Positions 6,167 to 43,187 of a stretch of 44,559 nucleotides of DNA are shown piece after piece. Position numbers and translations under genes: made by a program. The stretch is taken from sequence record PP920553.1; one strand, 5' to 3'. The notes beneath the pieces are model-generated. The model did no database searches. It was not told where the DNA came from and was given only the letters and a program-made list of their open reading frames with translations. How positions within the stretch are numbered: the stretch's first letter is position 1; the number at the start of each line of letters is the position of its first letter. Source of the DNA: Escherichia phage SM_A8.

Positions 6167-6201
6167 TTTGTTTTCCTTCATATCTCTGTTGGTGTGCAAC
6201 C

Positions 6202-6231
6202 AATATAATGCAACCAACATACGCAATGCAA
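6202..6231 (-). promoter_or_regulatory. sigma70-like promoter for leftward two-gene insert
   Basis: minus-sense TTGCAT-N18-TATATT; overlaps two GCAACCAA 8-mers; the 21 nt from the -10 onward are identical to the promoter at 39991-40011. Confidence 0.45.
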
Positions 6232-22267: not shown

Positions 22268-22295
22268 ATATTACACCACTCAACCAGGATTGCAA
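22268..22295 (-). promoter_or_regulatory. sigma70-like promoter for the lipoprotein gene
   Basis: minus-sense TTGCAA-N16-TAATAT; the -35 is part of an 8-mer copy (22292-22299). Confidence 0.4.
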
Positions 22296-22316
22296 CCAAT
22301 TTACGAGGATTTAGCT

Positions 22317-25243: not shown

Positions 25244-25273
25244 ACTATAGTGCAACCAACCTGTTGGTTGCAA
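25244..25273 (-). promoter_or_regulatory. sigma70-like promoter overlapped by 22-bp inverted repeat TGCAACCAA-cctg-TTGGTTGCA (operator candidate)
   Basis: minus-sense TTGCAA-N18-TATAGT; perfect 9-bp palindromic arms at 25251-25259 and 25264-25272. Confidence 0.45.
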
Positions 25274-25374: not shown

Positions 25375-25731
25375 TTAAGACACGCCCGCGTAGCAGACCA
25401 TTTTGAACACGGCGCACGCCTTAAACTCTGGCGGCGGGGTGTCGTCCAGCATGTGGCGCATAAACAACCGGCCAACCGGGAAGACCTCCAATTGCTCGGC
25501 GGTGGTGTCCCAACATTCGCGCTGCCGGTTGGTCAGATACGCGATCTCGAAGCCTTGCTCTTTATACATGCGCAGTAGCGGCAGCATATCCATGTTCAGG
25601 TCTTCGCGGACGTGCGCTTTGTGCCACTTCGCCCAAAAGGTGGATTTCGTTTTTATCCCAGGCACCAGGTCGGCACGGGCATCGCTTGAACCGTTAATAA
25701 CGCCATCCAAATCGCAAATCAGTAATTTCAT
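25375..25731 (-). CDS. HAD-superfamily phosphatase-like protein (small)
   Basis: N-terminal MKLLICDLDGVI matches HAD motif I (DxDG); start overlaps upstream stop (ATGA). Confidence 0.5.
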   Translation of the reverse strand: MKLLICDLDGVINGSSDARADLVPGIKTKSTFWAKWHKAHVREDLNMDMLPLLRMYKEQGFEIAYLTNRQRECWDTTAEQLEVFPVGRLFMRHMLDDTPPPEFKACAVFKMVCYAGVS

Positions 25732-25952
25732 TTTAGGCTCTCAATAAGGGTTGCTCGGGCGCTACGCGCGGTGTAAGAGTTGCACACGAAATGACAACGT
25801 CGGGTCATGACAAGCCAACCGGTGAGGTCAAGGCCCAGGATGTATTCGGGGCGAGACGCGCGCACCACACGATTGCGTCGCGGATCAATACCGTAGTCTT
25901 TTTGCATTTGGTCTACTACCGCGGGGTCGCGGTCAACGATTAAGATATTCAA
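25728..25952 (-). CDS. hypothetical protein
   Basis: 74-aa ORF translationally coupled on both sides. Confidence 0.4.
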   Translation of the reverse strand: MNILIVDRDPAVVDQMQKDYGIDPRRNRVVRASRPEYILGLDLTGWLVMTRRCHFVCNSYTARSARATLIESLK

Positions 25953-26418
25953 GGAGTTCTCCTTCGCTCATTATTTCAATTTGTGCGCTGCCGATGGGAG
26001 GCGCTTCGTCAAATATTATCAATTGCTGGCATTTGTTATTGCTCGGCCCGACTTCACCGGTGACGGCGTGAATGAATCTAATCCGCCAGTCCAGAAGAAT
26101 TATCAGGTTTGCAGTCTTCCTGGCCAACTTCGCCCACTTCGTCGACGTGTCCTGATTCAGCAGCATGACAGTCCTGCGTCCGTGCGCTGCACACTCGACC
26201 CACGGCAGCGGATCGGAATACGGCGGGTTGCACCACTTCCACCCTTTCAACTCTGACCAGTCCGCATCTAGCGCGCTGTGCTCTGCCGTGAAGTAACGCG
26301 GTAGCAGATGGTTGGCGTCGCTTGCCGCCATATCGTAACGGAATCGGAACTTACGGCGCAGCGGTTTAAATAAAGCTGGCGGCGTGCGCCAGCTATCCTT
26401 CTGCTCATTCTTCGTCAT
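25933..26418 (-). CDS. DNA N6-adenine methyltransferase (phage Dam family)
   Basis: NPPY catalytic motif (WKWCNPPYSD) and N-terminal WRTPPALF motif typical of small phage Dam enzymes. Confidence 0.75.
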   Translation of the reverse strand: MTKNEQKDSWRTPPALFKPLRRKFRFRYDMAASDANHLLPRYFTAEHSALDADWSELKGWKWCNPPYSDPLPWVECAAHGRRTVMLLNQDTSTKWAKLARKTANLIILLDWRIRFIHAVTGEVGPSNNKCQQLIIFDEAPPIGSAQIEIMSEGELLEYLNR

Positions 26419-26523
26419 GGTCGGTGTCTATCGCATAAAGTGGGATCTTATCGCCTTTTCTGATGACGCGTTGCACGCGCTTTGATTCCTCGGCGCTAAG
26501 CGGGCGCCCAACCGGACACCCTC

Positions 26524-26552
26524 AATATAATGCAACCAATATGATTATGCAA
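26524..26552 (-). promoter_or_regulatory. sigma70-like promoter upstream of Dam gene
   Basis: minus-sense TTGCAT-N17-TATATT built from two GCAACCAA copies (26532-26539, 26549-26556). Confidence 0.4.
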
Positions 26553-26557
26553 CCAAT

Positions 26558-26881
26558 TTACGCATAAAAGTTCGTGTCGCGTGCAACGTCTACCAGGTAA
26601 AGGTTGCTTATGCGGTTGCCGTAGTGCCCTGGAGTGCGCTGGCGGCACACAACGGCGAAGCCTGGAGGGATTGTATTGCCCGTCGCAATAATCCACGCCA
26701 CGCGTGCGCCAGACAGCGTCTTGCCGTTGCATTCGATACGGGTTCCGCCATCGGCGGTGTTGATGTTGCCAATCTTGCATCCGGTGGACTTCAGACGGAT
26801 GACTCCGGTTTTGCTGTCGTATGTGAATAGCTGATTGGTCATTGCCACTGAAAAGTCGATTGCGTCGAATGCAGTATTCAT
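26558..26881 (-). CDS. small HNH-like endonuclease (degenerate, putative)
   Basis: 107 aa; GK...ARVAW...GNRISNLYLV pattern resembles HNH_3; start ATGA-coupled to upstream gene, GAGGA RBS. Confidence 0.35.
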   Translation of the reverse strand: MNTAFDAIDFSVAMTNQLFTYDSKTGVIRLKSTGCKIGNINTADGGTRIECNGKTLSGARVAWIIATGNTIPPGFAVVCRQRTPGHYGNRISNLYLVDVARDTNFYA

Positions 26882-27588
26882 TTTAAATTTTCCTCGTTAA
26901 CCGCTATCGCGAAGCCGCGCGGGGTGAGTGAGCGGATTAATTTTGTACGAGCGGATTTACCACCGAGGCGACTATACTGCTTCGAGTACCCTTTTTCAAC
27001 GAAAACAGGTTTCTTCTCGGGCATACGGAAGCCGTTTCCAGTCCATAAGCAGGTCAGCTTCGGATATGAATCGCGGGCGTTGATGTATTCAGGGAAGAGC
27101 GGGTGTACGTCATCCTCTGGCAGATATCCGCCATACTCCCACGGGTCAAACGAGTGGTCCGGCTTACGCCACTGGGTGGAAAGCACGCTGCGCGGATTCT
27201 CAATCATATATGGCACTTCGAAGAAATCACCCAGGTAAGCTGCGATCTTCGCGGTGCGCACCGCCTTAAGCTGGAAGGCAGGGTCGCGGGCGCGTTTGCG
27301 CGGGAAAGCTGGCGCACCGCTAACCGCCAGATCCGTACACGGCGGGAATGCGTAAATGATATCCGGCGTGCCGAAATCGCCATTCATCGCGCGATCCACG
27401 AAGTCCAGGTCGATAAACTCATTACGATAGCGAATGCCGCGGCCATAGATCCGGTAGTCCAGGTAAGACCCGTGATCGGCTTCGGAGTAGTTGAAGCAAT
27501 AACACTTATGCCCCATCTCGGCAGCACGCTCAATCATCAAGCCGCTGCCGTCAAACAATGACCAGATTGTCATTTTAGCAATAGTCAT
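26878..27588 (-). CDS. cytosine-C5 methyltransferase-like protein (short)
   Basis: motif I-like LFDGSGL, motif IV-like FPPCTDLAVSG (PC motif), motif VI-like ENP; only 236 aa so the target recognition region may be minimal. Confidence 0.5.
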   Translation of the reverse strand: MTIAKMTIWSLFDGSGLMIERAAEMGHKCYCFNYSEADHGSYLDYRIYGRGIRYRNEFIDLDFVDRAMNGDFGTPDIIYAFPPCTDLAVSGAPAFPRKRARDPAFQLKAVRTAKIAAYLGDFFEVPYMIENPRSVLSTQWRKPDHSFDPWEYGGYLPEDDVHPLFPEYINARDSYPKLTCLWTGNGFRMPEKKPVFVEKGYSKQYSRLGGKSARTKLIRSLTPRGFAIAVNEENLK

Positions 27589-29009
27589 TTGCGCGCCTTT
27601 TTAGCTTTCATGTATTCCATTAAATCGTCCTGTATATCTCGCTTACTGTCGCGACGTTCGGCGACCAGTTCATCCAGTGTGCCGCGCGCCTGGATAATGT
27701 AGACGAATACCGGACGAGGGTGCCCAGCTTGCATCTGGCGGACAGGCCCGATACGTTCCACGATCTGCGCAAAGTGCTCATAGTTCCAGGTGTCGGAAAA
27801 GATAGCAAGGTGGTGTCCCCCATCCTGCAAGTTAAGGCCGTGACCCGCCGATGCCGGGTGCGCGAACATGATGGGGATCTCGCCCCTGTTCCACGCTTCC
27901 ATATCCTTATTGCCCTGCTTTCCTTTACCCAACGCGACGCCGTGCGGGAATTTCTTCTTAAGACGTGCTAAGTCATGCTTGTACTGGTATGCGACGAGCA
28001 ACGGCGCGCCGTTCAACTCCTCCACGATACTTTCCAGCGCGTCCAGTTTAGCGTCGTGGATTTTAACCCATTCGTCGGTGCGCTCGCCGTCTTCGTCGAC
28101 CTTATACACGGCCCCGGAAGCAAGCTGAAGGCACTTAATAGTCTTCGAAGCAGCGTTCGCCGCCTCCACCGTTCCGCTTTCCAGTTCGGCAAATAGCTCC
28201 GCCTCAAACTGGTCATAAATCTTGCGGGCTTTCTTCGGCAGGTCCACAACAACCGGCGTATAGATTGGCTTGTCACACCCGAAGTATTCAGCCGCATCAA
28301 CGGTGAGCGACACGTCGGACAGGCGTTGTTGTATTTCCTTCTCGGAGTTTTTTAGCGGGGCGTGCTGCATAGTGAAGCTGCCAGGCTTAACCGGCTTGCT
28401 AATAAACCAGCGGTCTGTGAATGCCTTATAACTACTGCCGAGGCGTTCGCCACCGTCGACAAACCACGTCTGACCCCACAGGTCTTTCAGTCCGTTTGGT
28501 GCGGGTGTGCCGGTTAGGTTAATCCAGCGCTTGACGTGCTTATGTGCAATAGCCGCCAGTGCGCGAGCGCGCTTGCTGCCTTGCTTGCTGCGGTAGCCTT
28601 TCAGCTTAGTGGATTCATCGGCAACAACGACCGTAAAGGGCCACTCGTCGCCGCAATACTCTACAAGCCACTCAACCACATCATAGTTAACGCAAACCAC
28701 GTTAGCGTCGCTCTCCAGCGCTGCAATGCGGTCCTTCTCTGGACCAGTGCCGTCTACTACCAGCAGGGCTGGGAAGCGCCATTTCTCCTGCTCCGGGGGC
28801 CAGGTGCCGGACGCAACGCGCAGCGGGGCCAGCACCAGTACGCGGTCCTCCTGGTTGGACAGGATACCCGTCTGGAACATTTTATTCAGCGCCCACATAG
28901 TCGCGCCGGTTTTACCCGACCCCATTGTCGCCCATATATTGCATCGCTTATGCTTGAGGATGAACGCGGTTATCAACTTCTGATATTCGCGACGTCGGAA
29001 ACGTGCCAT
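27585..29009 (-). CDS. SNF2-family (superfamily 2) DNA helicase
   Basis: start at MARFRRR (ATG 29009, RBS AAGGCGGAA); Walker A ATMGSGKTG, DExx box VVADEST, SNF2 motif LTGTPAPNG. Confidence 0.75.
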   Translation of the reverse strand: MARFRRREYQKLITAFILKHKRCNIWATMGSGKTGATMWALNKMFQTGILSNQEDRVLVLAPLRVASGTWPPEQEKWRFPALLVVDGTGPEKDRIAALESDANVVCVNYDVVEWLVEYCGDEWPFTVVVADESTKLKGYRSKQGSKRARALAAIAHKHVKRWINLTGTPAPNGLKDLWGQTWFVDGGERLGSSYKAFTDRWFISKPVKPGSFTMQHAPLKNSEKEIQQRLSDVSLTVDAAEYFGCDKPIYTPVVVDLPKKARKIYDQFEAELFAELESGTVEAANAASKTIKCLQLASGAVYKVDEDGERTDEWVKIHDAKLDALESIVEELNGAPLLVAYQYKHDLARLKKKFPHGVALGKGKQGNKDMEAWNRGEIPIMFAHPASAGHGLNLQDGGHHLAIFSDTWNYEHFAQIVERIGPVRQMQAGHPRPVFVYIIQARGTLDELVAERRDSKRDIQDDLMEYMKAKKARK

Positions 29010-29013
29010 TTCT

Positions 29014-29232
29014 TTATTCCGCCTTTTTCCAGACTTCGGTTTCACTGTTCCAGTTCCTTTTTGTGGCGTCGTAGTTGGTGCGGTGACCGATGTGCACACC
29101 CGTCGCCCGGAAGCTCTTAAATTTTTGCCAGCATACCGTCAACGGCAGCGGGTCATTCAGTCCCGCAATAAACCATACGCGATCGCCTGGTTTACATTCG
29201 CCCAGCTTGGTGAGTCGGTAATGTTCTTTCAT
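29014..29232 (-). CDS. hypothetical protein
   Basis: ATG 29232 with GGGAG RBS; stop 4 nt upstream of helicase start. Confidence 0.45.
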   Translation of the reverse strand: MKEHYRLTKLGECKPGDRVWFIAGLNDPLPLTVCWQKFKSFRATGVHIGHRTNYDATKRNWNSETEVWKKAE

Positions 29233-29275: not shown

Positions 29276-29449
29276 TTATTCTTGTTCTGCGCGATAGCGG
29301 CGCTGCCGTTCGCGCTCTTTCTTATTGCGGCACGATTTGCACTCAGCCCGATGACCGTCTGGACTTCGCGCAGTCTTACCGGTGTATTTGTGGAACTGGG
29401 ACAGCGGCTTGATGCAGCCGCAATTACTACAACGTTTTTCTTCAATCAT
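29276..29449 (-). CDS. small zinc-ribbon protein
   Basis: 57 aa with CxxC ... CxxC (CSNCGC ... CKSC); GAGGA RBS. Confidence 0.45.
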   Translation of the reverse strand: MIEEKRCSNCGCIKPLSQFHKYTGKTARSPDGHRAECKSCRNKKERERQRRYRAEQE

Positions 29450-29489
29450 TTCTAAAATCCTCGGTAGTGCTATCCGGCACACTATACCG

Positions 29490-29768
29490 CTACGCGACCA
29501 ATTCAGCAACCAATAAATCACAGTCGGCTATGTTGTCGATAACGCGAACGTCAGCACCGCGGCGGGCCATTCGCTCGTGCTCACGTACCTGGTGCGGCTT
29601 CGGTTTTCCTCCGGGGCGCTTCACTTCGACGAACACTATTTTGCCGTTGATGATAATAATCAGGTCGGGCGCACCTGCGCGCCCCTCCCATGCCAGTTTT
29701 CGGCAGAATCCGCCTACCTCTTTCACCCGTCGCATCAGGTGATTTTGCACCTTGCCTTCTGGTGTCAT
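29490..29768 (-). CDS. VRR-NUC domain nuclease
   Basis: PD-(D/E)XK pattern: GAPDLIIII ... EVKRPGGK ... Q; ATGA-coupled to upstream HNH gene. Confidence 0.6.
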   Translation of the reverse strand: MTPEGKVQNHLMRRVKEVGGFCRKLAWEGRAGAPDLIIIINGKIVFVEVKRPGGKPKPHQVREHERMARRGADVRVIDNIADCDLLVAELVA

Positions 29769-30367
29769 TGTCGGCTTTTCCTTACGGCAGCGATGGCAGG
29801 TCCGATAAACTTCTTCATTTCGTCCGGGGTAAACCGGTCCCCGCGGGCTATGTTGCACTCTACGCAGCACGGCACGCAGTTATCTTTCGTATGGCCTACT
29901 GCGTTGTCGAGTCGGTCCGCGCCATTGTCGCCGGTGAATCCGCAGTATGCGCATGGTTGAGAAGTAAGGCGTAGCACGTCCTCGGTGGTTAGGTCGGTGT
30001 TTAACCCCTTCCTTTCGTCCGCCTTACGGTACTGAAAGAGCTTATAGTAAGCTCGGATCTCTGGTGTCCGGCGGTTGTACTCACGGCGGGACTTATTAGA
30101 GCACGACCGGCATTCTTTACAAATGTGTGACTGGCTTGCCCTGTTTCCGGGCCGGAAGTTTTCCGGCGTAAGCGGCTTGCGTTCCCCGCACTGACGGCAC
30201 GTTACGATCTCCCCGGTATACTCTCGCCATACTTCGCGCGGCGGCGCTCCTCTTTCCTTATCTCGTCTCTCTTTCTTATACGACGCCATGCATTTGGCGC
30301 ACCACGACTGACCCTTGTTGAAAGCGGACTCGTCTTTATCCGTATTACAACGCCCACAATGTTTCAT
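29765..30367 (-). CDS. HNH endonuclease with N-terminal zinc-ribbon repeats
   Basis: several CxxC pairs, then C-terminal HNH motif DRLDNAVGHTKDNCVPCCVECNIARG. Confidence 0.6.
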   Translation of the reverse strand: MKHCGRCNTDKDESAFNKGQSWCAKCMASYKKERRDKERGAPPREVWREYTGEIVTCRQCGERKPLTPENFRPGNRASQSHICKECRSCSNKSRREYNRRTPEIRAYYKLFQYRKADERKGLNTDLTTEDVLRLTSQPCAYCGFTGDNGADRLDNAVGHTKDNCVPCCVECNIARGDRFTPDEMKKFIGPAIAAVRKSRQ

Positions 30368-30434
30368 ATACACCCCCGAAAAAGAAAACGCCAGACAATA
30401 TTGCCCGACGTTTCCGCTAAAAGCAACATTTCCG

Positions 30435-32726
30435 CTACTTGCGGTATCGATACATACAATCACCTTCGGCGGCAAGTGGGAAGCCTTTCGCCCAAATAGG
30501 CAGGTCGCACATCAGCGCGCAAAGCTCCTCTGTCGTGTAGTCGTCGGTGTCCGGCACTTCTGTGATCAATTCATCATGCACCGATAGAACGATTTCATAG
30601 CCCGCAGCTTCAACGCCAGGCATTGACCAGGCGAGAATATCACGGCACAACGCCTGTACTATGTTCTCCGTCAGTTTGCCGCCGTAGGTATACTGGAAGC
30701 CCCACTGGCGCGTCGTCTGATTCTCGCCCTGATATTTAATGCGTGTGCTGGTGCGCTTCTTGCCGGTGTCTTCGTCAATCTCGGTCGTGACAGACAGCGC
30801 GATGCCCGGGTAGCTCATGATGCGCCCCGACGGCAACTCAATTTTCAACCACCACCCCGCGGCGTTCGGGTCGTCGCGCTCCTCGTCAAAGGTTGGGTCG
30901 TGCTTCGCCTTCGTACGGACAATCTTGAGCGCTTTTCTACCGTCCGGGCGAACGTTCGCACCAGCCCAGTATGCTTTGCCCGGATTGCGGATTGCACACA
31001 ACACCGCGTCCTCAAGCTCGGCCCAAAATGCTACCGTCTTCGGGTGAGCCTCACGCCACATACGTTTGATCGCGTCACAAGTCAGCCATACGTTTTTCGG
31101 CAGTATGTATGTTGGACGCTCGTCTTTCTTGCCTGGCTTCGGCGGGCGTTTCGCTTCGTTAATACGAGCGTATTCATAACCGCGTTTCGCCGCCGCCCAA
31201 ATGTGATCGGGGAATGTGCCCTTCATCACGTCCGCCATAGTGTAAAGGTCGAGGCCCAGGTTTTTAGCGAACTGCAAGAACGCCGCGACTCCGCCACCAT
31301 AGCCCAGTCCCAATTCGCACGCCTTACCGATCTGGCGTAAGTCCTTGCGGTTGGCTTTAATGTAGTCCGGGTCCAGGCCGAACATCTTACCGGCAGTCTC
31401 ACAATAGATATCGCGACCGGCCATAAACACCATTAGCGCGGTTTTCTCGCCCGCGATCCAGGCAAGTCCACGCCCTTCCACGTTGGAGAAGTCCGCTACG
31501 ACAAACTTCTTACCCTTAGCCGGAATAATGCACCCGCGAACGGTCGAGGCCGTTAACTTCGATATGTCATACGCCCAGTGTGCAGTCCCGCGTAACAGGG
31601 AGTTGATGCCGTTGGTGAGCATGTGCGACCGCACCCAATAAGAAACGTCGCTCTCGCCATCACGGCGCTTAATCTTCCCTTCGTGGTCGTCGCTATACTC
31701 GCCGCGTGCCAGGTTTTGCGGCTGGAAGCCCTTACCGGCCCAGCGTAGCGTGCGCTTTGCCCCACCATACTGAAGACAACCACGGCGGCGACCATCGGCG
31801 GACAGGCCATTGACAAGCGGATTGTATTTAGTAGATGCCGTTGATGACGCACCGAGGCGCATTTCGATAAGCGCTTTGCCTTCGTCGGGGAAATCCGGGT
31901 CTTCAAGCAGGTCGTTAAGTGTGGATTTCTGCGCGTTGTGGATCGTGAACGCCGGGGCGATATCACGCAGGATTGGCAGGAAGTCATTGCCGGTCAGCTT
32001 ACCGCCAAATCGCTCCCAGGCTTCTTCCTTCAATTCTTCCTTATGCGCCTGCACCGCTTTGATCGCGGCGTTCGCCAGGTCAACGTCCACATAGAAGCCG
32101 CGGTCGTTGATCAACTGGTCGATAAGCAGGATTTCATCTTCCTTCGGAGTATTACCCCAGTCCGGTATGCGCCAGTAGACTTCACGCATTGCGATAATAT
32201 CCAGCGCGGCATAGCGCAGAAATTTGGCCCACTCTTCTGGGTGAGTCTCGCGAGTGTAGCGGCGGATTTTGTAGGTCTTAGGGGTAGGCTTACAGAATCG
32301 TTTAATCAGCGCCTTGCCTGCCTTATCCTTCGCGTGCTCTGCGTCAACGCCCAGCACCTGGCACTGCATATCGAGGCTGCCGGGGAGAGCGTGGCGAAAG
32401 GCCATAATCATGGTGTCTTCGATCTGGCTTACCGGCAGGTCAATACCCCACTTCTCGCGAATGACCAGGCGGTCAAACAGGAGGCCGTTAGCCATCACTA
32501 TTTTTGCTTTCTTGCGGGATACCCTGCGGAGCGCCTTGCGCAGTTCACGCGGCATTGTTGGGGACTCGGTGCAATCCCATGTCTGCACGCGGCCCTCATC
32601 GATGGCGTAGGTGCAAATCATAATCTCGGTGGTTGGGTGCTCTGCGTAGGCATATGCGCCCACTTTCTTCAGATCCACCCCGCTAAATGTCTCGGTATCG
32701 AGAAAAAGTCGTTCGAAGTCTTTCAT
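30435..32726 (-). CDS. family A DNA polymerase (Pol I-like) with 3-5 exonuclease domain
   Basis: Exo I motif FLDTETFSG, O-helix-like RQIGKACELGLGYGGG, motif C SVHDE; 763 aa. Confidence 0.85.
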   Translation of the reverse strand: MKDFERLFLDTETFSGVDLKKVGAYAYAEHPTTEIMICTYAIDEGRVQTWDCTESPTMPRELRKALRRVSRKKAKIVMANGLLFDRLVIREKWGIDLPVSQIEDTMIMAFRHALPGSLDMQCQVLGVDAEHAKDKAGKALIKRFCKPTPKTYKIRRYTRETHPEEWAKFLRYAALDIIAMREVYWRIPDWGNTPKEDEILLIDQLINDRGFYVDVDLANAAIKAVQAHKEELKEEAWERFGGKLTGNDFLPILRDIAPAFTIHNAQKSTLNDLLEDPDFPDEGKALIEMRLGASSTASTKYNPLVNGLSADGRRRGCLQYGGAKRTLRWAGKGFQPQNLARGEYSDDHEGKIKRRDGESDVSYWVRSHMLTNGINSLLRGTAHWAYDISKLTASTVRGCIIPAKGKKFVVADFSNVEGRGLAWIAGEKTALMVFMAGRDIYCETAGKMFGLDPDYIKANRKDLRQIGKACELGLGYGGGVAAFLQFAKNLGLDLYTMADVMKGTFPDHIWAAAKRGYEYARINEAKRPPKPGKKDERPTYILPKNVWLTCDAIKRMWREAHPKTVAFWAELEDAVLCAIRNPGKAYWAGANVRPDGRKALKIVRTKAKHDPTFDEERDDPNAAGWWLKIELPSGRIMSYPGIALSVTTEIDEDTGKKRTSTRIKYQGENQTTRQWGFQYTYGGKLTENIVQALCRDILAWSMPGVEAAGYEIVLSVHDELITEVPDTDDYTTEELCALMCDLPIWAKGFPLAAEGDCMYRYRK

Positions 32727-36679: not shown

Positions 36680-36708
36680 AATATTAGATTGGTTGCAGAA
36701 GGGAGTCA
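36680..36708 (-). promoter_or_regulatory. leftward early promoter (P2)
   Basis: minus-sense TTGACT-N17-TAATAT with a GCAACCAA copy in the spacer; about 190 nt upstream of first leftward gene. Confidence 0.5.
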
Positions 36709-39812: not shown

Positions 39813-39967
39813 AATCCGGGGATTGCAAAATACACGGCAGCATGATGCTAAGTGCGGTCGTCGATGAACTAGGCAACCAATGCGGGTTGTATTATGCTGA
39901 GTGAAAAATGCGGTTTGCAGTTGCAGCAGATAGCGATCAACTTTTTCATGCGCGTGATTAATATTGG

Positions 39968-39996
39968 TTGCGTTCACCCCGGCACCATGCTATATT
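39968..39996 (+). promoter_or_regulatory. rightward early promoter
   Basis: TTGCGT-N17-TATATT; TTGGTTGC copies overlap the -35 and follow the -10; 21-mer TATATTGGTTGCACACCAACA matches the minus strand at 6187-6207. Confidence 0.5.
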
Positions 39997-40024
39997 GGTT
40001 GCACACCAACATGAGGACTGAACA

Positions 40025-40339: not shown

Positions 40340-40615
40340 ATGACCCGTAGGCGCGCAAAACAGCTTTCGTGGCATATTCCCCTGCATTGCATACGAATAT
40401 GGGCGGAGAATGCGGTTGAGGGTGAATCGGTATTCTGGTGCTATCGCGACGACGTAAAGCCGTTGACGCAGACTCGCTACTTGCACCAGTTCGCAGCGCA
40501 ACACGATTTCAGGGTGCGGACTTCCTTGCAACCAATGGGAATACGTATTACATTACGCCGGAAGCCCGCCGTTGAGCGGGTAGGCAAACACTGGAGACTG
40601 AGCAAATGTTCTTAG
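40340..40615 (+). CDS. hypothetical early protein
   Basis: 91-aa ORF. Confidence 0.45.
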   Translation: MTRRRAKQLSWHIPLHCIRIWAENAVEGESVFWCYRDDVKPLTQTRYLHQFAAQHDFRVRTSLQPMGIRITLRRKPAVERVGKHWRLSKCS

Positions 40616-43123: not shown

Positions 43124-43187
43124 ATTGCTTGACTCGCAACCAACACAGGGGCCATACTGCAACCAATCAACTGGAGGAGTAATCAAG

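What the first reader, a model, noticed from the sequence alone, without database searches (positions are those of the whole stretch)
25933..27588. Adenine (Dam, NPPY) and cytosine-C5-like methyltransferases flanking a small HNH-like gene
A Dam-family methyltransferase (25933-26418) and a short C5-methyltransferase-like protein (26878-27588) bracket a 107-aa HNH-like ORF, all translationally coupled within the leftward operon. Two orphan methyltransferases suggest anti-restriction by self-methylation. The C5-like protein at 236 aa may lack a full target recognition domain and could have a different activity or substrate.
Basis: partly seen in the sequence, partly recalled or inferred. Interest (0 to 1): 0.5.

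Follow-up and report, generated by a model that had tools for sequence, protein, structure and literature searches.

The report
Two orphan phage DNA methyltransferases, known kind
This stretch of a Dhillonvirus-type coliphage carries an ordinary small phage Dam adenine methylase and a very short cytosine-C5 methylase, whose close relative has already been shown to make 5-methylcytosine and to set off a bacterial retron defence, on either side of a small relic of a homing nuclease that has lost its catalytic residues.

Summary
The three ORFs exist exactly where stated. The window is a Dhillonvirus-like genome, about 93% identical in DNA to published phages that already annotate these genes.

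- **Dam (161 aa):** a clear member of the phage Dam family, PF05869, with an NPPY motif.
- **Experimental link:** it is 54% identical over its full length to the 236-aa Dcm of phage KarlJaspers/K42. That enzyme, expressed alone, puts 5mC on retron Ec86 msDNA and triggers the retron. The short length is therefore a family trait (about 2,900 clusters), not a defect.
- **Coupling:** only partial. ATGA overlaps link helicase to C5 and C5 to the 107-aa gene. A 139-nt gap, a deletion scar, precedes Dam.

No cognate restriction enzyme was found. Anti-restriction is plausible but untested. Ordinary; low novelty.

The parts
27585..29099 (-). SNF2-family helicase, the upstream neighbour. Its stop codon overlaps the start of the C5 methyltransferase gene (ATGA).
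   Evidence: Pfam SNF2-rel_dom 8e-11. ORF coordinates and sequence. The same order occurs in phages B2, EK99P-1 and contig L005.
26878..27588 (-). Short (236 aa) Dcm-like DNA cytosine-C5 methyltransferase. SAM-binding FDGSG lies at residues 12-16, catalytic Cys84 in PPC, Glu130 in ENP, and there is a conserved minimal recognition region at about residues 150-215. An alternative start at Met6 is used in some relatives (231 aa).
26558..26881 (-). 107-aa protein related to the N-terminal half of the homing endonuclease I-HmuI (HNH_3-type). It lacks the catalytic Asp-His and the C-terminal DNA-binding domain, and is found only in Dhillonviruses. It is coupled to the C5 gene by an ATGA overlap.
26419..26557 (-). 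139-nt non-coding gap. It holds a tandem pair of the repeated motif ATTGGTTGCAT (26530-26540 and 26547-26557). It also holds the 3' remnant of a 154-aa gene lost through a 386-nt deletion, with the junction at about 26502-26507.
   Evidence: Sequence. blastn against phage B2 gives two pieces with a 386-nt gap in the window. The lost gene is phrog_10530.
25933..26418 (-). Small (161 aa) phage Dam-family N6-adenine DNA methyltransferase with an NPPY motif (residues 64-67).
   Evidence: PF05869 1e-36, 126.6 bits against cut-off 28.1. phrog_111 1.6e-55. TIGR01712 89.2 bits, below its 97.05 cut-off. 30% identical, E 5e-14, to the KarlJaspers Dam-like methyltransferase. dN/dS 0.14.
25728..25952 (-). 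74-aa ORF of unknown function that overlaps the 3' end of Dam by 20 nt. It is the next gene of the operon.
   Evidence: ORF list. The same 225-nt gene with the same overlap is annotated in B2 and EK99P-1.

Best explanation
The region is part of the leftward replication and DNA-metabolism operon of a Dhillonvirus-type coliphage. It encodes two stand-alone (orphan) SAM-dependent DNA methyltransferases.

**Dam.** The 161-aa protein is a phage Dam-family enzyme that makes N6-methyladenine. Its target is most likely GATC, as in characterised phage members of this family; that is an inference.

**C5 methyltransferase.** The 236-aa protein belongs to a large family of unusually compact, phage-borne 'Dcm-like' C5-cytosine methyltransferases.
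- It uses the standard chemistry. Cys84 of the PPC motif attacks C6 of a flipped-out cytosine, Glu130 of ENP protonates N3, and the methyl group comes from SAM bound at FDGSG.
- Target recognition must rest on a conserved loop region of about 50 residues rather than a full recognition domain.
- It works alone, without the neighbouring protein.

**Likely consequences.** Phage and host DNA become methylated during infection. This should protect against restriction enzymes that cut the unmethylated target sites. It also makes the phage detectable by the retron Ec86/Eco1 defence, which senses cytosine methylation of its msDNA.

**107-aa gene.** The gene between the two methyltransferases is a truncated, catalytically disabled descendant of an I-HmuI-type homing endonuclease. 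It has been retained under purifying selection within this genus, and nothing links it functionally to either methyltransferase.

**Shown and inferred.**
- Shown here: gene structures, family membership, fold, and conservation of catalytic residues.
- Shown elsewhere for a 54%-identical homologue: 5mC formation and retron triggering.
- Inferred: target sequences, the anti-restriction role, and inactivity of the 107-aa protein.
For: - **Identity of the phage.** The DNA is 91-94% identical to Dhillonvirus genomes that annotate the same genes.
- **Dam.** PF05869 126.6 bits, phrog_111, NPPY in the translation, and homology to the KarlJaspers Dam-like methyltransferase (a T1-like Drexlerviridae phage).
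- **C5 enzyme, sequence.** Motifs I, IV and VI are invariant in 32 homologues. PF00145 is hit by 8 of 32 family members, and by P0023 above the gathering score.
- **C5 enzyme, experimental link.** It is 54% identical, without large gaps, to the 236-aa KarlJaspers Dcm. The K42 version forms 5mC on msDNA when expressed alone and triggers retron Ec86; a quadruple mutant including the catalytic Cys does neither. A later paper restates this.
- **Family size and length.** There are 2873 clusters in the 90%-identity collection and 817 representatives in the 50%-identity library; most listed full-length members are roughly 215-260 aa.
- **Selection.** All three genes are under purifying selection.
- **Orphan status.** No restriction enzyme or cofactor-synthesis gene was found among the neighbours scanned.
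- **107-aa protein.** It is unrelated to the genes next to the C5 gene in other phages.
Against: - The window protein itself does not reach any curated C5-methyltransferase model. A profile comparison with E. coli Dcm is not significant.
- Membership therefore rests on motifs, predicted fold and transitive homology.
- The target sequence is unknown. CCWGG was assumed by analogy in the retron study, not mapped. In that study msDNA carried little 5mC in dcm+ MG1655 without the phage enzyme. The phage enzyme therefore cannot be simply equivalent to host Dcm.
- GATC and CCWGG are neither avoided nor enriched in the window (O/E 0.81 and 0.95), which says nothing either way.
- Dhillonviruses are described as comparatively sensitive to the restriction systems tested in the BASEL study, so a protective role is undemonstrated.
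Confidence: 0.82

Rival explanations
1. The short C5-like protein has a different activity or substrate from DNA cytosine methylation. Examples would be tRNA/RNA m5C formation like Dnmt2, or transfer of a group other than methyl, such as carboxymethyl from Cx-SAM like phage CmoX.
Against: A 54%-identical homologue of the same length produces 5mC on DNA in vivo. CmoX systems carry a phage CmoA and usually CmoY, and none was found among the window's non-structural genes. The best structural matches are DNA enzymes.
Confidence: 0.06
2. The 107-aa protein is a functional partner of the C5 methyltransferase. It would either supply target recognition in trans, as in split C5 methyltransferases, or act as the nuclease half of a compact restriction-modification or homing cassette.
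For: The two genes share an ATGA overlap. This order is conserved throughout the genus, including the divergent contig L005. The methyltransferase has a minimal recognition region. The 107-aa gene is under purifying selection.
Against: The K42 Dcm is active when expressed alone. The 107-aa family has only 6 clusters, on contigs up to Dhillonvirus genome size (15-46 kb), whereas the methyltransferase family has 2873. In KarlJaspers and in contig L006 the genes next to the methyltransferase are unrelated. The catalytic Asp-His is missing.
Confidence: 0.07
3. The methyltransferases are active, but protection from restriction is not their main role. They might time replication or packaging, block host mismatch repair or Vsr repair, or counter another defence system. 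Alternatively they may be largely redundant passengers on Dam+ Dcm+ hosts.
For: The usual K-12 host already has Dam and Dcm. The BASEL study found no link between the methyltransferases carried by the related Drexlerviridae and their restriction resistance, and described Dhillonviruses as comparatively restriction-sensitive. K42 mutants lacking dcm still form plaques, and were selected for on retron-bearing cells. The genes sit in the replication operon.
Against: Both genes are conserved and under strong purifying selection across the genus and in many unrelated phage groups, which implies a benefit. The restriction systems tested in BASEL do not target GATC or CCWGG, so they could not have revealed protection. 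That last point is my reading of the enzyme list.
Confidence: 0.25

Closest known systems
Dcm of Escherichia phage KarlJaspers (Bas06, bas06_0055) and its K42 strain, the trigger of retron Ec86/Eco1
   Same: Same length (236 aa), 54% identity end to end, and the same catalytic Cys, Glu and Lys positions (C82/E128/K175 correspond to C84/E130/K177). It is the same compact, phage-borne family, phrog_757.
   Different: It comes from a different phage family (Drexlerviridae against Dhillonvirus) with different neighbouring genes. K176 is Leu178 in the window protein. The window protein itself is untested.
Classical C5-cytosine DNA methyltransferases (PF00145: E. coli Dcm, M.HhaI, M.HaeIII, DNMT3A/B catalytic domain)
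   Different: The window protein is 50-230 residues shorter than the shorter classical and DNMT3-domain chains listed. There is no significant sequence match to PF00145 or to E. coli Dcm. Motif VIII is only partly recognisable (WRK), and there is no large recognition domain.
Phage Dam family PF05869 / TIGR01712 (the small Dam enzymes of T1-like, HP1 and Stx phages)
   Same: Strong Pfam match, NPPY motif and small size. 30% identity to the KarlJaspers Dam-like methyltransferase (a T1-like Drexlerviridae phage).
   Different: It scores below the NCBIfam equivalog cut-off (89.2 against 97.05). It is about 70 residues shorter than the T1-type enzyme. GATC specificity is assumed from my knowledge of family members, not tested.
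I-HmuI (PDB 1u3e), an HNH_3-type homing endonuclease of phage SPO1
   Different: I-HmuI D74-H75 align with C79-R80 (or R80-Q81). The protein stops 67 residues short and lacks the C-terminal helix-turn-helix domain. The Pfam HNH_3 score is below cut-off.

Membership tests
C5-cytosine DNA methyltransferase (PF00145-type) | Motif I, FxGxG SAM-binding loop near the N-terminus | tested here: met
   The sequence LFDGSG is present, and F12, G14, S15 and G16 are invariant in 32 homologues.
C5-cytosine DNA methyltransferase (PF00145-type) | Motif IV, Pro-Cys with the catalytic cysteine | tested here: met
   P82-P83-C84 is invariant. C84 aligns with C82 of the K42/KarlJaspers Dcm. C82 is one of four residues mutated together in the inactive K42 mutant.
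C5-cytosine DNA methyltransferase (PF00145-type) | Motif VI, ENV with the glutamate that protonates N3 | tested here: met
   E130-N131-P132 is invariant. E130 aligns with E128 of the K42 Dcm.
C5-cytosine DNA methyltransferase (PF00145-type) | Motif VIII, QxRxR | tested here: inconclusive
   Only W140-R141-K142 ('QWRKP') is present, and W140 and R141 are invariant. I had no residue-level structural superposition to confirm equivalence.
C5-cytosine DNA methyltransferase (PF00145-type) | A sizeable target-recognition domain between motifs VIII and IX | tested here: not met
   The protein is 236 aa in total, and 178-197 residues align to the catalytic cores of known enzymes. About 50 residues remain (around 150-215), mostly coil in the model but highly conserved.
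C5-cytosine DNA methyltransferase (PF00145-type) | Score above the curated Pfam/NCBIfam threshold | tested here: not met
   The window protein has no hit even at E 10. However, 8 of 32 close homologues hit PF00145 at E<=0.01, and P0023 (63% identical) scores 28.5 against a gathering score of 22.
C5-cytosine DNA methyltransferase (PF00145-type) | C5-methyltransferase fold | tested here: met
C5-cytosine DNA methyltransferase (PF00145-type) | Formation of 5-methylcytosine in DNA | not testable with these tools
   This has been shown by LC-MS for the K42 Dcm. KarlJaspers, whose genome is 95.4% identical to K42, encodes a Dcm 54% identical to the window protein.
Phage Dam N6-adenine methyltransferase (PF05869) | Pfam model above the gathering score | tested here: met
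   126.6 bits against 28.1, covering residues 2-142 of the protein and positions 4-151 of the 169-position model.
Phage Dam N6-adenine methyltransferase (PF05869) | (D/N)PP(Y/F) catalytic motif | tested here: met
   The translation reads C-N-P-P-Y-S at residues 63-68.
Phage Dam N6-adenine methyltransferase (PF05869) | NCBIfam TIGR01712 equivalog cut-off | tested here: not met
   89.2 bits against a cut-off of 97.05. It is a family member but not a certified equivalog.
Phage Dam N6-adenine methyltransferase (PF05869) | GATC specificity and m6A formation | not testable with these tools
   There are 160 GATC sites in the window, O/E 0.81, which is uninformative.
HNH endonuclease (HNH_3 / I-HmuI type) | Pfam HNH_3 above the gathering score | tested here: not met
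   E 0.11, 12.6 bits against 24.8, and only residues 60-77 match.
HNH endonuclease (HNH_3 / I-HmuI type) | Catalytic His (general base) and the adjacent Asp (I-HmuI D74-H75) | tested here: not met
   In the MAFFT alignment with 1u3e_M these positions are C79-R80. With an ungapped register counted from the NL motif they are R80-Q81. R80 and Q81 are invariant in the family.
HNH endonuclease (HNH_3 / I-HmuI type) | Fold similarity to a solved HNH endonuclease | tested here: inconclusive
HNH endonuclease (HNH_3 / I-HmuI type) | C-terminal DNA-binding (helix-turn-helix) domain of I-HmuI-type enzymes | tested here: not met
   The protein ends at residue 107, whereas I-HmuI has 174 residues.
Type II restriction-modification system | A cognate restriction endonuclease encoded next to the methyltransferase | tested here: not met
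   The neighbours are an SNF2 helicase, the degenerate HNH relic, a HAD phosphatase-like protein, DUF6378, and replication and recombination genes. Related phages show the same gene order without a restriction enzyme.
CmoX-type DNA cytosine C5-carboxymethyltransferase | A co-encoded Cx-SAM synthase (CmoA), usually with CmoY | tested here: not met
   The defining features come from PMC12783734. No such gene was found among the non-structural ORFs scanned. The structural module at 1-24000 was not scanned by profile.

The most novel reading that the evidence does not exclude
The compact phage 'Dcm-like' enzymes may not be functional copies of host Dcm.

In the retron Ec86 study, msDNA in dcm+ MG1655 carried little 5mC until the phage enzyme was expressed. 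CCWGG specificity was assumed there, not mapped.

The 236-aa family could therefore have its own specificity or substrate preference. Possibilities are the outer cytosine, a shorter motif, or hairpin or single-stranded DNA, read by a recognition loop of about 50 residues and perhaps through dimerisation as in DNMT3, its best structural match.

That would make it, to my knowledge, the smallest sequence-specific DNA C5 methyltransferase, with an undescribed way of reading DNA.

Separately, the catalytically dead I-HmuI relic, kept under selection, may have been recruited as a DNA-binding regulator.
Probability: 0.3. Interest if true: 0.5.

Novelty: already known. Interest (0 to 1): 0.2.

Why it matters
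The practical value is limited. The result corrects an over-reading: the short C5 enzyme is a normal member of a widespread and experimentally validated phage family, not a crippled or repurposed one. It also corrects an annotation that is propagated in GenBank, because the 'putative HNH endonuclease' of Dhillonviruses lacks the catalytic Asp-His.

The result predicts that this phage would be sensed by retron Ec86/Eco1, for example in E. coli B/BL21. That is relevant when choosing or engineering therapeutic phages.

The one open question is the true sequence specificity of this minimal methyltransferase family and how about 50 residues achieve it.

Tried and rejected
1. **Direct sequence links from the 236-aa protein to known C5 methyltransferases.** All gave nothing significant: Pfam at E 10, NCBIfam, PDB phmmer and profile search, and hhalign against E. 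coli Dcm. Only predicted structure, motifs and transitive homology made the link.
2. **The 107-aa protein as a recognition subunit acting in trans.** Rejected. The family is restricted to Dhillonviruses. The neighbours of the methyltransferase in KarlJaspers and in contig L006 are unrelated. The K42 enzyme works alone.
3. **Fusion partners.** Nine longer family representatives (292-453 aa) had no Pfam domain at all, so they gave no functional hint.
4. **Motif counts.** GATC, CCWGG and other palindromes gave no clue to specificity. CTAG and GGCC/GGWCC are low, but that is common in enterobacterial sequences.
5. **Residue-level geometry.** I could not check it because the predicted coordinates are not exposed to scripts.
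6. **Literature search for a mapped methylome of Dhillonvirus or of this family.** It found nothing.
7. **Consensus promoter scan.** It did not flag the gap upstream of Dam.
Full report
**What the window is.** A 2.1-kb query spanning the finding matches 157 phage records. Nearly all are Escherichia/Dhillonvirus phages of about 44-45 kb, at 91-94% identity. The window (44,559 bases) is therefore essentially a Dhillonvirus-type genome. The published relatives B2 and EK99P-1 already annotate the same run of genes on the same strand: DNA helicase, 'putative DNA cytosine methyltransferase C5', 'putative HNH endonuclease', one or two small genes, and 'DNA methyltransferase'.

**Checking the observation.**
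- The ORF list confirms the three minus-strand ORFs at exactly the stated coordinates.
- The helicase stop and the 236-aa start share an ATGA (27585-27588). So do the 236-aa stop and the 107-aa start (26878-26881).
- The 107-aa gene and Dam are separated by 139 non-coding bases (26419-26557), so 'all translationally coupled' is only partly true.
- That gap is a scar. Aligned with phage B2, the window lacks 386 bases, with the junction near 26502-26507. The deletion removes most of a 154-aa gene (phrog_10530, labelled 'DNA ligase') that the examined relatives B2 and EK99P-1 and a divergent contig carry, and whose presence in the other listed relatives is implied by their longer matched spans.
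- Compared with that divergent contig (L005), all three genes show far fewer non-synonymous than synonymous changes. For the C5-like gene pN is 0.145 against pS 0.758. dN/dS is about 0.31 for the 107-aa gene and about 0.14 for Dam. All three are real genes under selection.

**Dam.**
- The 161-aa protein matches Pfam PF05869 (phage Dam) at 126.6 bits against a cut-off of 28.1, and phrog_111 at 1.6e-55.
- It carries C-N-P-P-Y-S.
- It falls just short of the NCBIfam equivalog threshold, 89.2 against 97.05.
- It is 30% identical (E 5e-14) to the longer Dam-like enzyme of the T1-like phage KarlJaspers.
- From my own knowledge, characterised phage enzymes of this family (T1, HP1, Stx-phage Dam) methylate GATC. 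That was not tested here.
- The window has 160 GATC sites, neither avoided nor enriched.

**The short C5-like protein.**
- By sequence it is invisible to the curated resources. It has no Pfam hit even at E 10, no NCBIfam hit and no PDB hit, and a profile comparison with E. coli Dcm is not significant.
- It nevertheless belongs to a very large and uniform family: phrog_757 at 7e-84, 2873 clusters at 90% identity and 817 representatives at 50% identity. Most listed full-length members are roughly 215-260 aa.
- Members occur in many phage types, including Dhillonvirus, Klebsiella siphophages and large Salmonella/Escherichia myophages.
- In an alignment of 32 members the invariant residues are those that define C5 methyltransferases: F12/G14/S15/G16 (motif I), P82-P83-C84 (motif IV) and E130-N131-P132 (motif VI). 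There is also a strongly conserved C-terminal third.
- Eight of the 32 members hit PF00145 at E<=0.01. One of them, 63% identical to the window protein, scores above the gathering score.
- The AlphaFold model is confident, with pLDDT 90.9 and pTM 0.89.
- About 50 residues are therefore left for target recognition. DNMT3, the best match, is from my own knowledge also the classical enzyme with the smallest such region.

**Experimental link.**
- A preprint on retron Ec86 isolated escape mutants of phage K42, a strain of KarlJaspers. All four mutants disrupted a 711-bp dcm gene.
- Expression of that Dcm alone was toxic only in cells carrying the retron.
- LC-MS showed high 5mC on msDNA with wild-type Dcm, but not with a quadruple C82A/E128A/K175A/K176A mutant.
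- 34 of 35 retron-sensitive phages encoded such a Dcm (bioRxiv 10.1101/2023.08.16.553469). A 2026 paper repeats the conclusion.
- I fetched KarlJaspers (MZ501090; accession from the BASEL supplement). Its 711-bp 'Dcm-like C5 cytosine methyltransferase' is 54% identical to the window protein over 234 residues with one 2-residue gap, E 2e-86.
- C82, E128 and K175 align with C84, E130 and K177.
- The family is therefore an active DNA C5 methyltransferase that needs no partner. The speculation about a different activity or substrate is not supported.
- A carboxymethyl-transfer alternative (CmoX-like) would require a phage CmoA. None was found among the non-structural genes.

**What remains open for the C5 enzyme.**
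- The retron study assumed CCWGG by analogy with host Dcm. It showed only that mutating the CCTGG of the msDNA abolished defence.
- The same experiments were done in dcm+ MG1655, where msDNA without the phage enzyme had little 5mC. The phage enzyme is therefore not simply redundant with host Dcm.
- Its true motif and substrate preference are unmapped.
- The window has 159 CCWGG sites at O/E 0.95, which is uninformative.

**The 107-aa 'HNH-like' protein.**
- It hits phrog_99 ('HNH endonuclease') at 7e-16. Pfam HNH_3 scores only E 0.11, below threshold, and covers residues 60-77.
- Its family is tiny: six clusters, on contigs up to Dhillonvirus genome size (15-46 kb).
- I verified the I-HmuI sequence against 1u3e_M and aligned it. 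The N-terminal sheet and the 'GN..NL' segment align.
- The catalytic D74-H75 of I-HmuI (roles from my own knowledge) correspond to C79-R80, or to R80-Q81 in an ungapped register. R80 and Q81 are invariant in the family.
- The protein ends 67 residues before I-HmuI does and lacks its C-terminal DNA-binding half.
- It is best described as a truncated, probably inactive homing-endonuclease relic retained under selection.
- I considered that it might supply DNA recognition to the minimal methyltransferase. The pairing exists only in this genus, the genes next to the methyltransferase in other phages are unrelated, and the K42 enzyme acts alone.

**Function.**
- Both methyltransferases are orphans inside the replication and recombination operon. 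That operon includes an SNF2 helicase, DNA polymerase, a Gp2.5-like ssDNA-binding/annealing protein, an exonuclease, VRR-NUC, an endonuclease VII-like protein and a Lar-like protein.
- Protection of progeny DNA from restriction enzymes that cut the unmethylated sites is the standard and most likely benefit, but it is an inference.
- The BASEL study found no link between the methyltransferases of the related Drexlerviridae and their restriction resistance, and described Dhillonviruses as comparatively restriction-sensitive. As I read the enzyme list, the systems tested there do not recognise GATC or CCWGG.
- A demonstrated consequence for the family is a cost: detection by retron Ec86/Eco1.

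**Verdict.** The speculative part is contradicted by published experiments on a close family member, and the HNH label is overstated. The genes are already annotated in dozens of near-identical genomes. Interest is low. The residual interest lies in the unmapped specificity of this minimal C5 methyltransferase family.

Noticed in passing
window 26530-26557, 25251-25272, 6195-6217, 22291-22299, 36689-36697, 39963-40003, 40527-40535, 43158-43166: The 9-mer TTGGTTGCA occurs 11 times against 0.45 expected, and no shuffle reached that count. By the crude ORF map, most copies lie in gene-boundary regions (in gaps between ORFs or within the first or last few codons of one). They include a tandem pair right after the 107-aa stop and upstream of Dam, an inverted pair (TGCAACCAAC CT GTTGGTTGCA) at 25251-25272, and pairs 30-50 nt upstream of ATG starts. 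It may be a phage promoter or regulator-binding motif. In the gap, TTGCAT-17 nt-TATATT can be read as a weak sigma-70-like promoter.
   Followed up: partly
window 26419-26557 (junction about 26502-26507): Relative to phage B2 there is a 386-nt deletion. It removes most of a 154-aa gene (phrog_10530, labelled 'DNA ligase' in some records) that lies between the 107-aa gene and Dam in the examined relatives B2 and EK99P-1 and in the divergent contig L005. The gene's last ~30 codons survive as non-coding DNA.
   Followed up: yes
window 29765-30475 (- strand): An endonuclease VII / HNH-like ORF (phrog_1035, 6e-42) sits between the VRR-NUC gene and the DNA polymerase gene. The helicase-to-polymerase interval is 1336 nt here against 759 nt in phage B2. 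This suggests an inserted homing-endonuclease-type gene.
   Followed up: no
window 29276-29521 (- strand): An 81-aa zinc-finger-type ORF matches the 'Lar-like restriction alleviation protein' family (phrog_5558, 1.5e-17). It is a possible second anti-restriction function in the same operon, and EK99P-1 annotates a homologous gene.
   Followed up: no
literature (bioRxiv 10.1101/2023.08.16.553469), relevant to window 26878-27588: In the retron Ec86 study the msDNA had low 5mC in dcm+ E. coli MG1655 until the phage Dcm was expressed. The CCWGG specificity of the phage enzyme was assumed rather than mapped. The paper never mentions the host Dcm.
   Followed up: partly
window 26878-27588, start region: There are two possible starts, Met1 (MTIAK) and Met6 (MTIWSL). 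Met1 gives the ATGA overlap with the helicase stop, whereas B2 and most homologues start at the equivalent of Met6, giving 231 aa.
   Followed up: no
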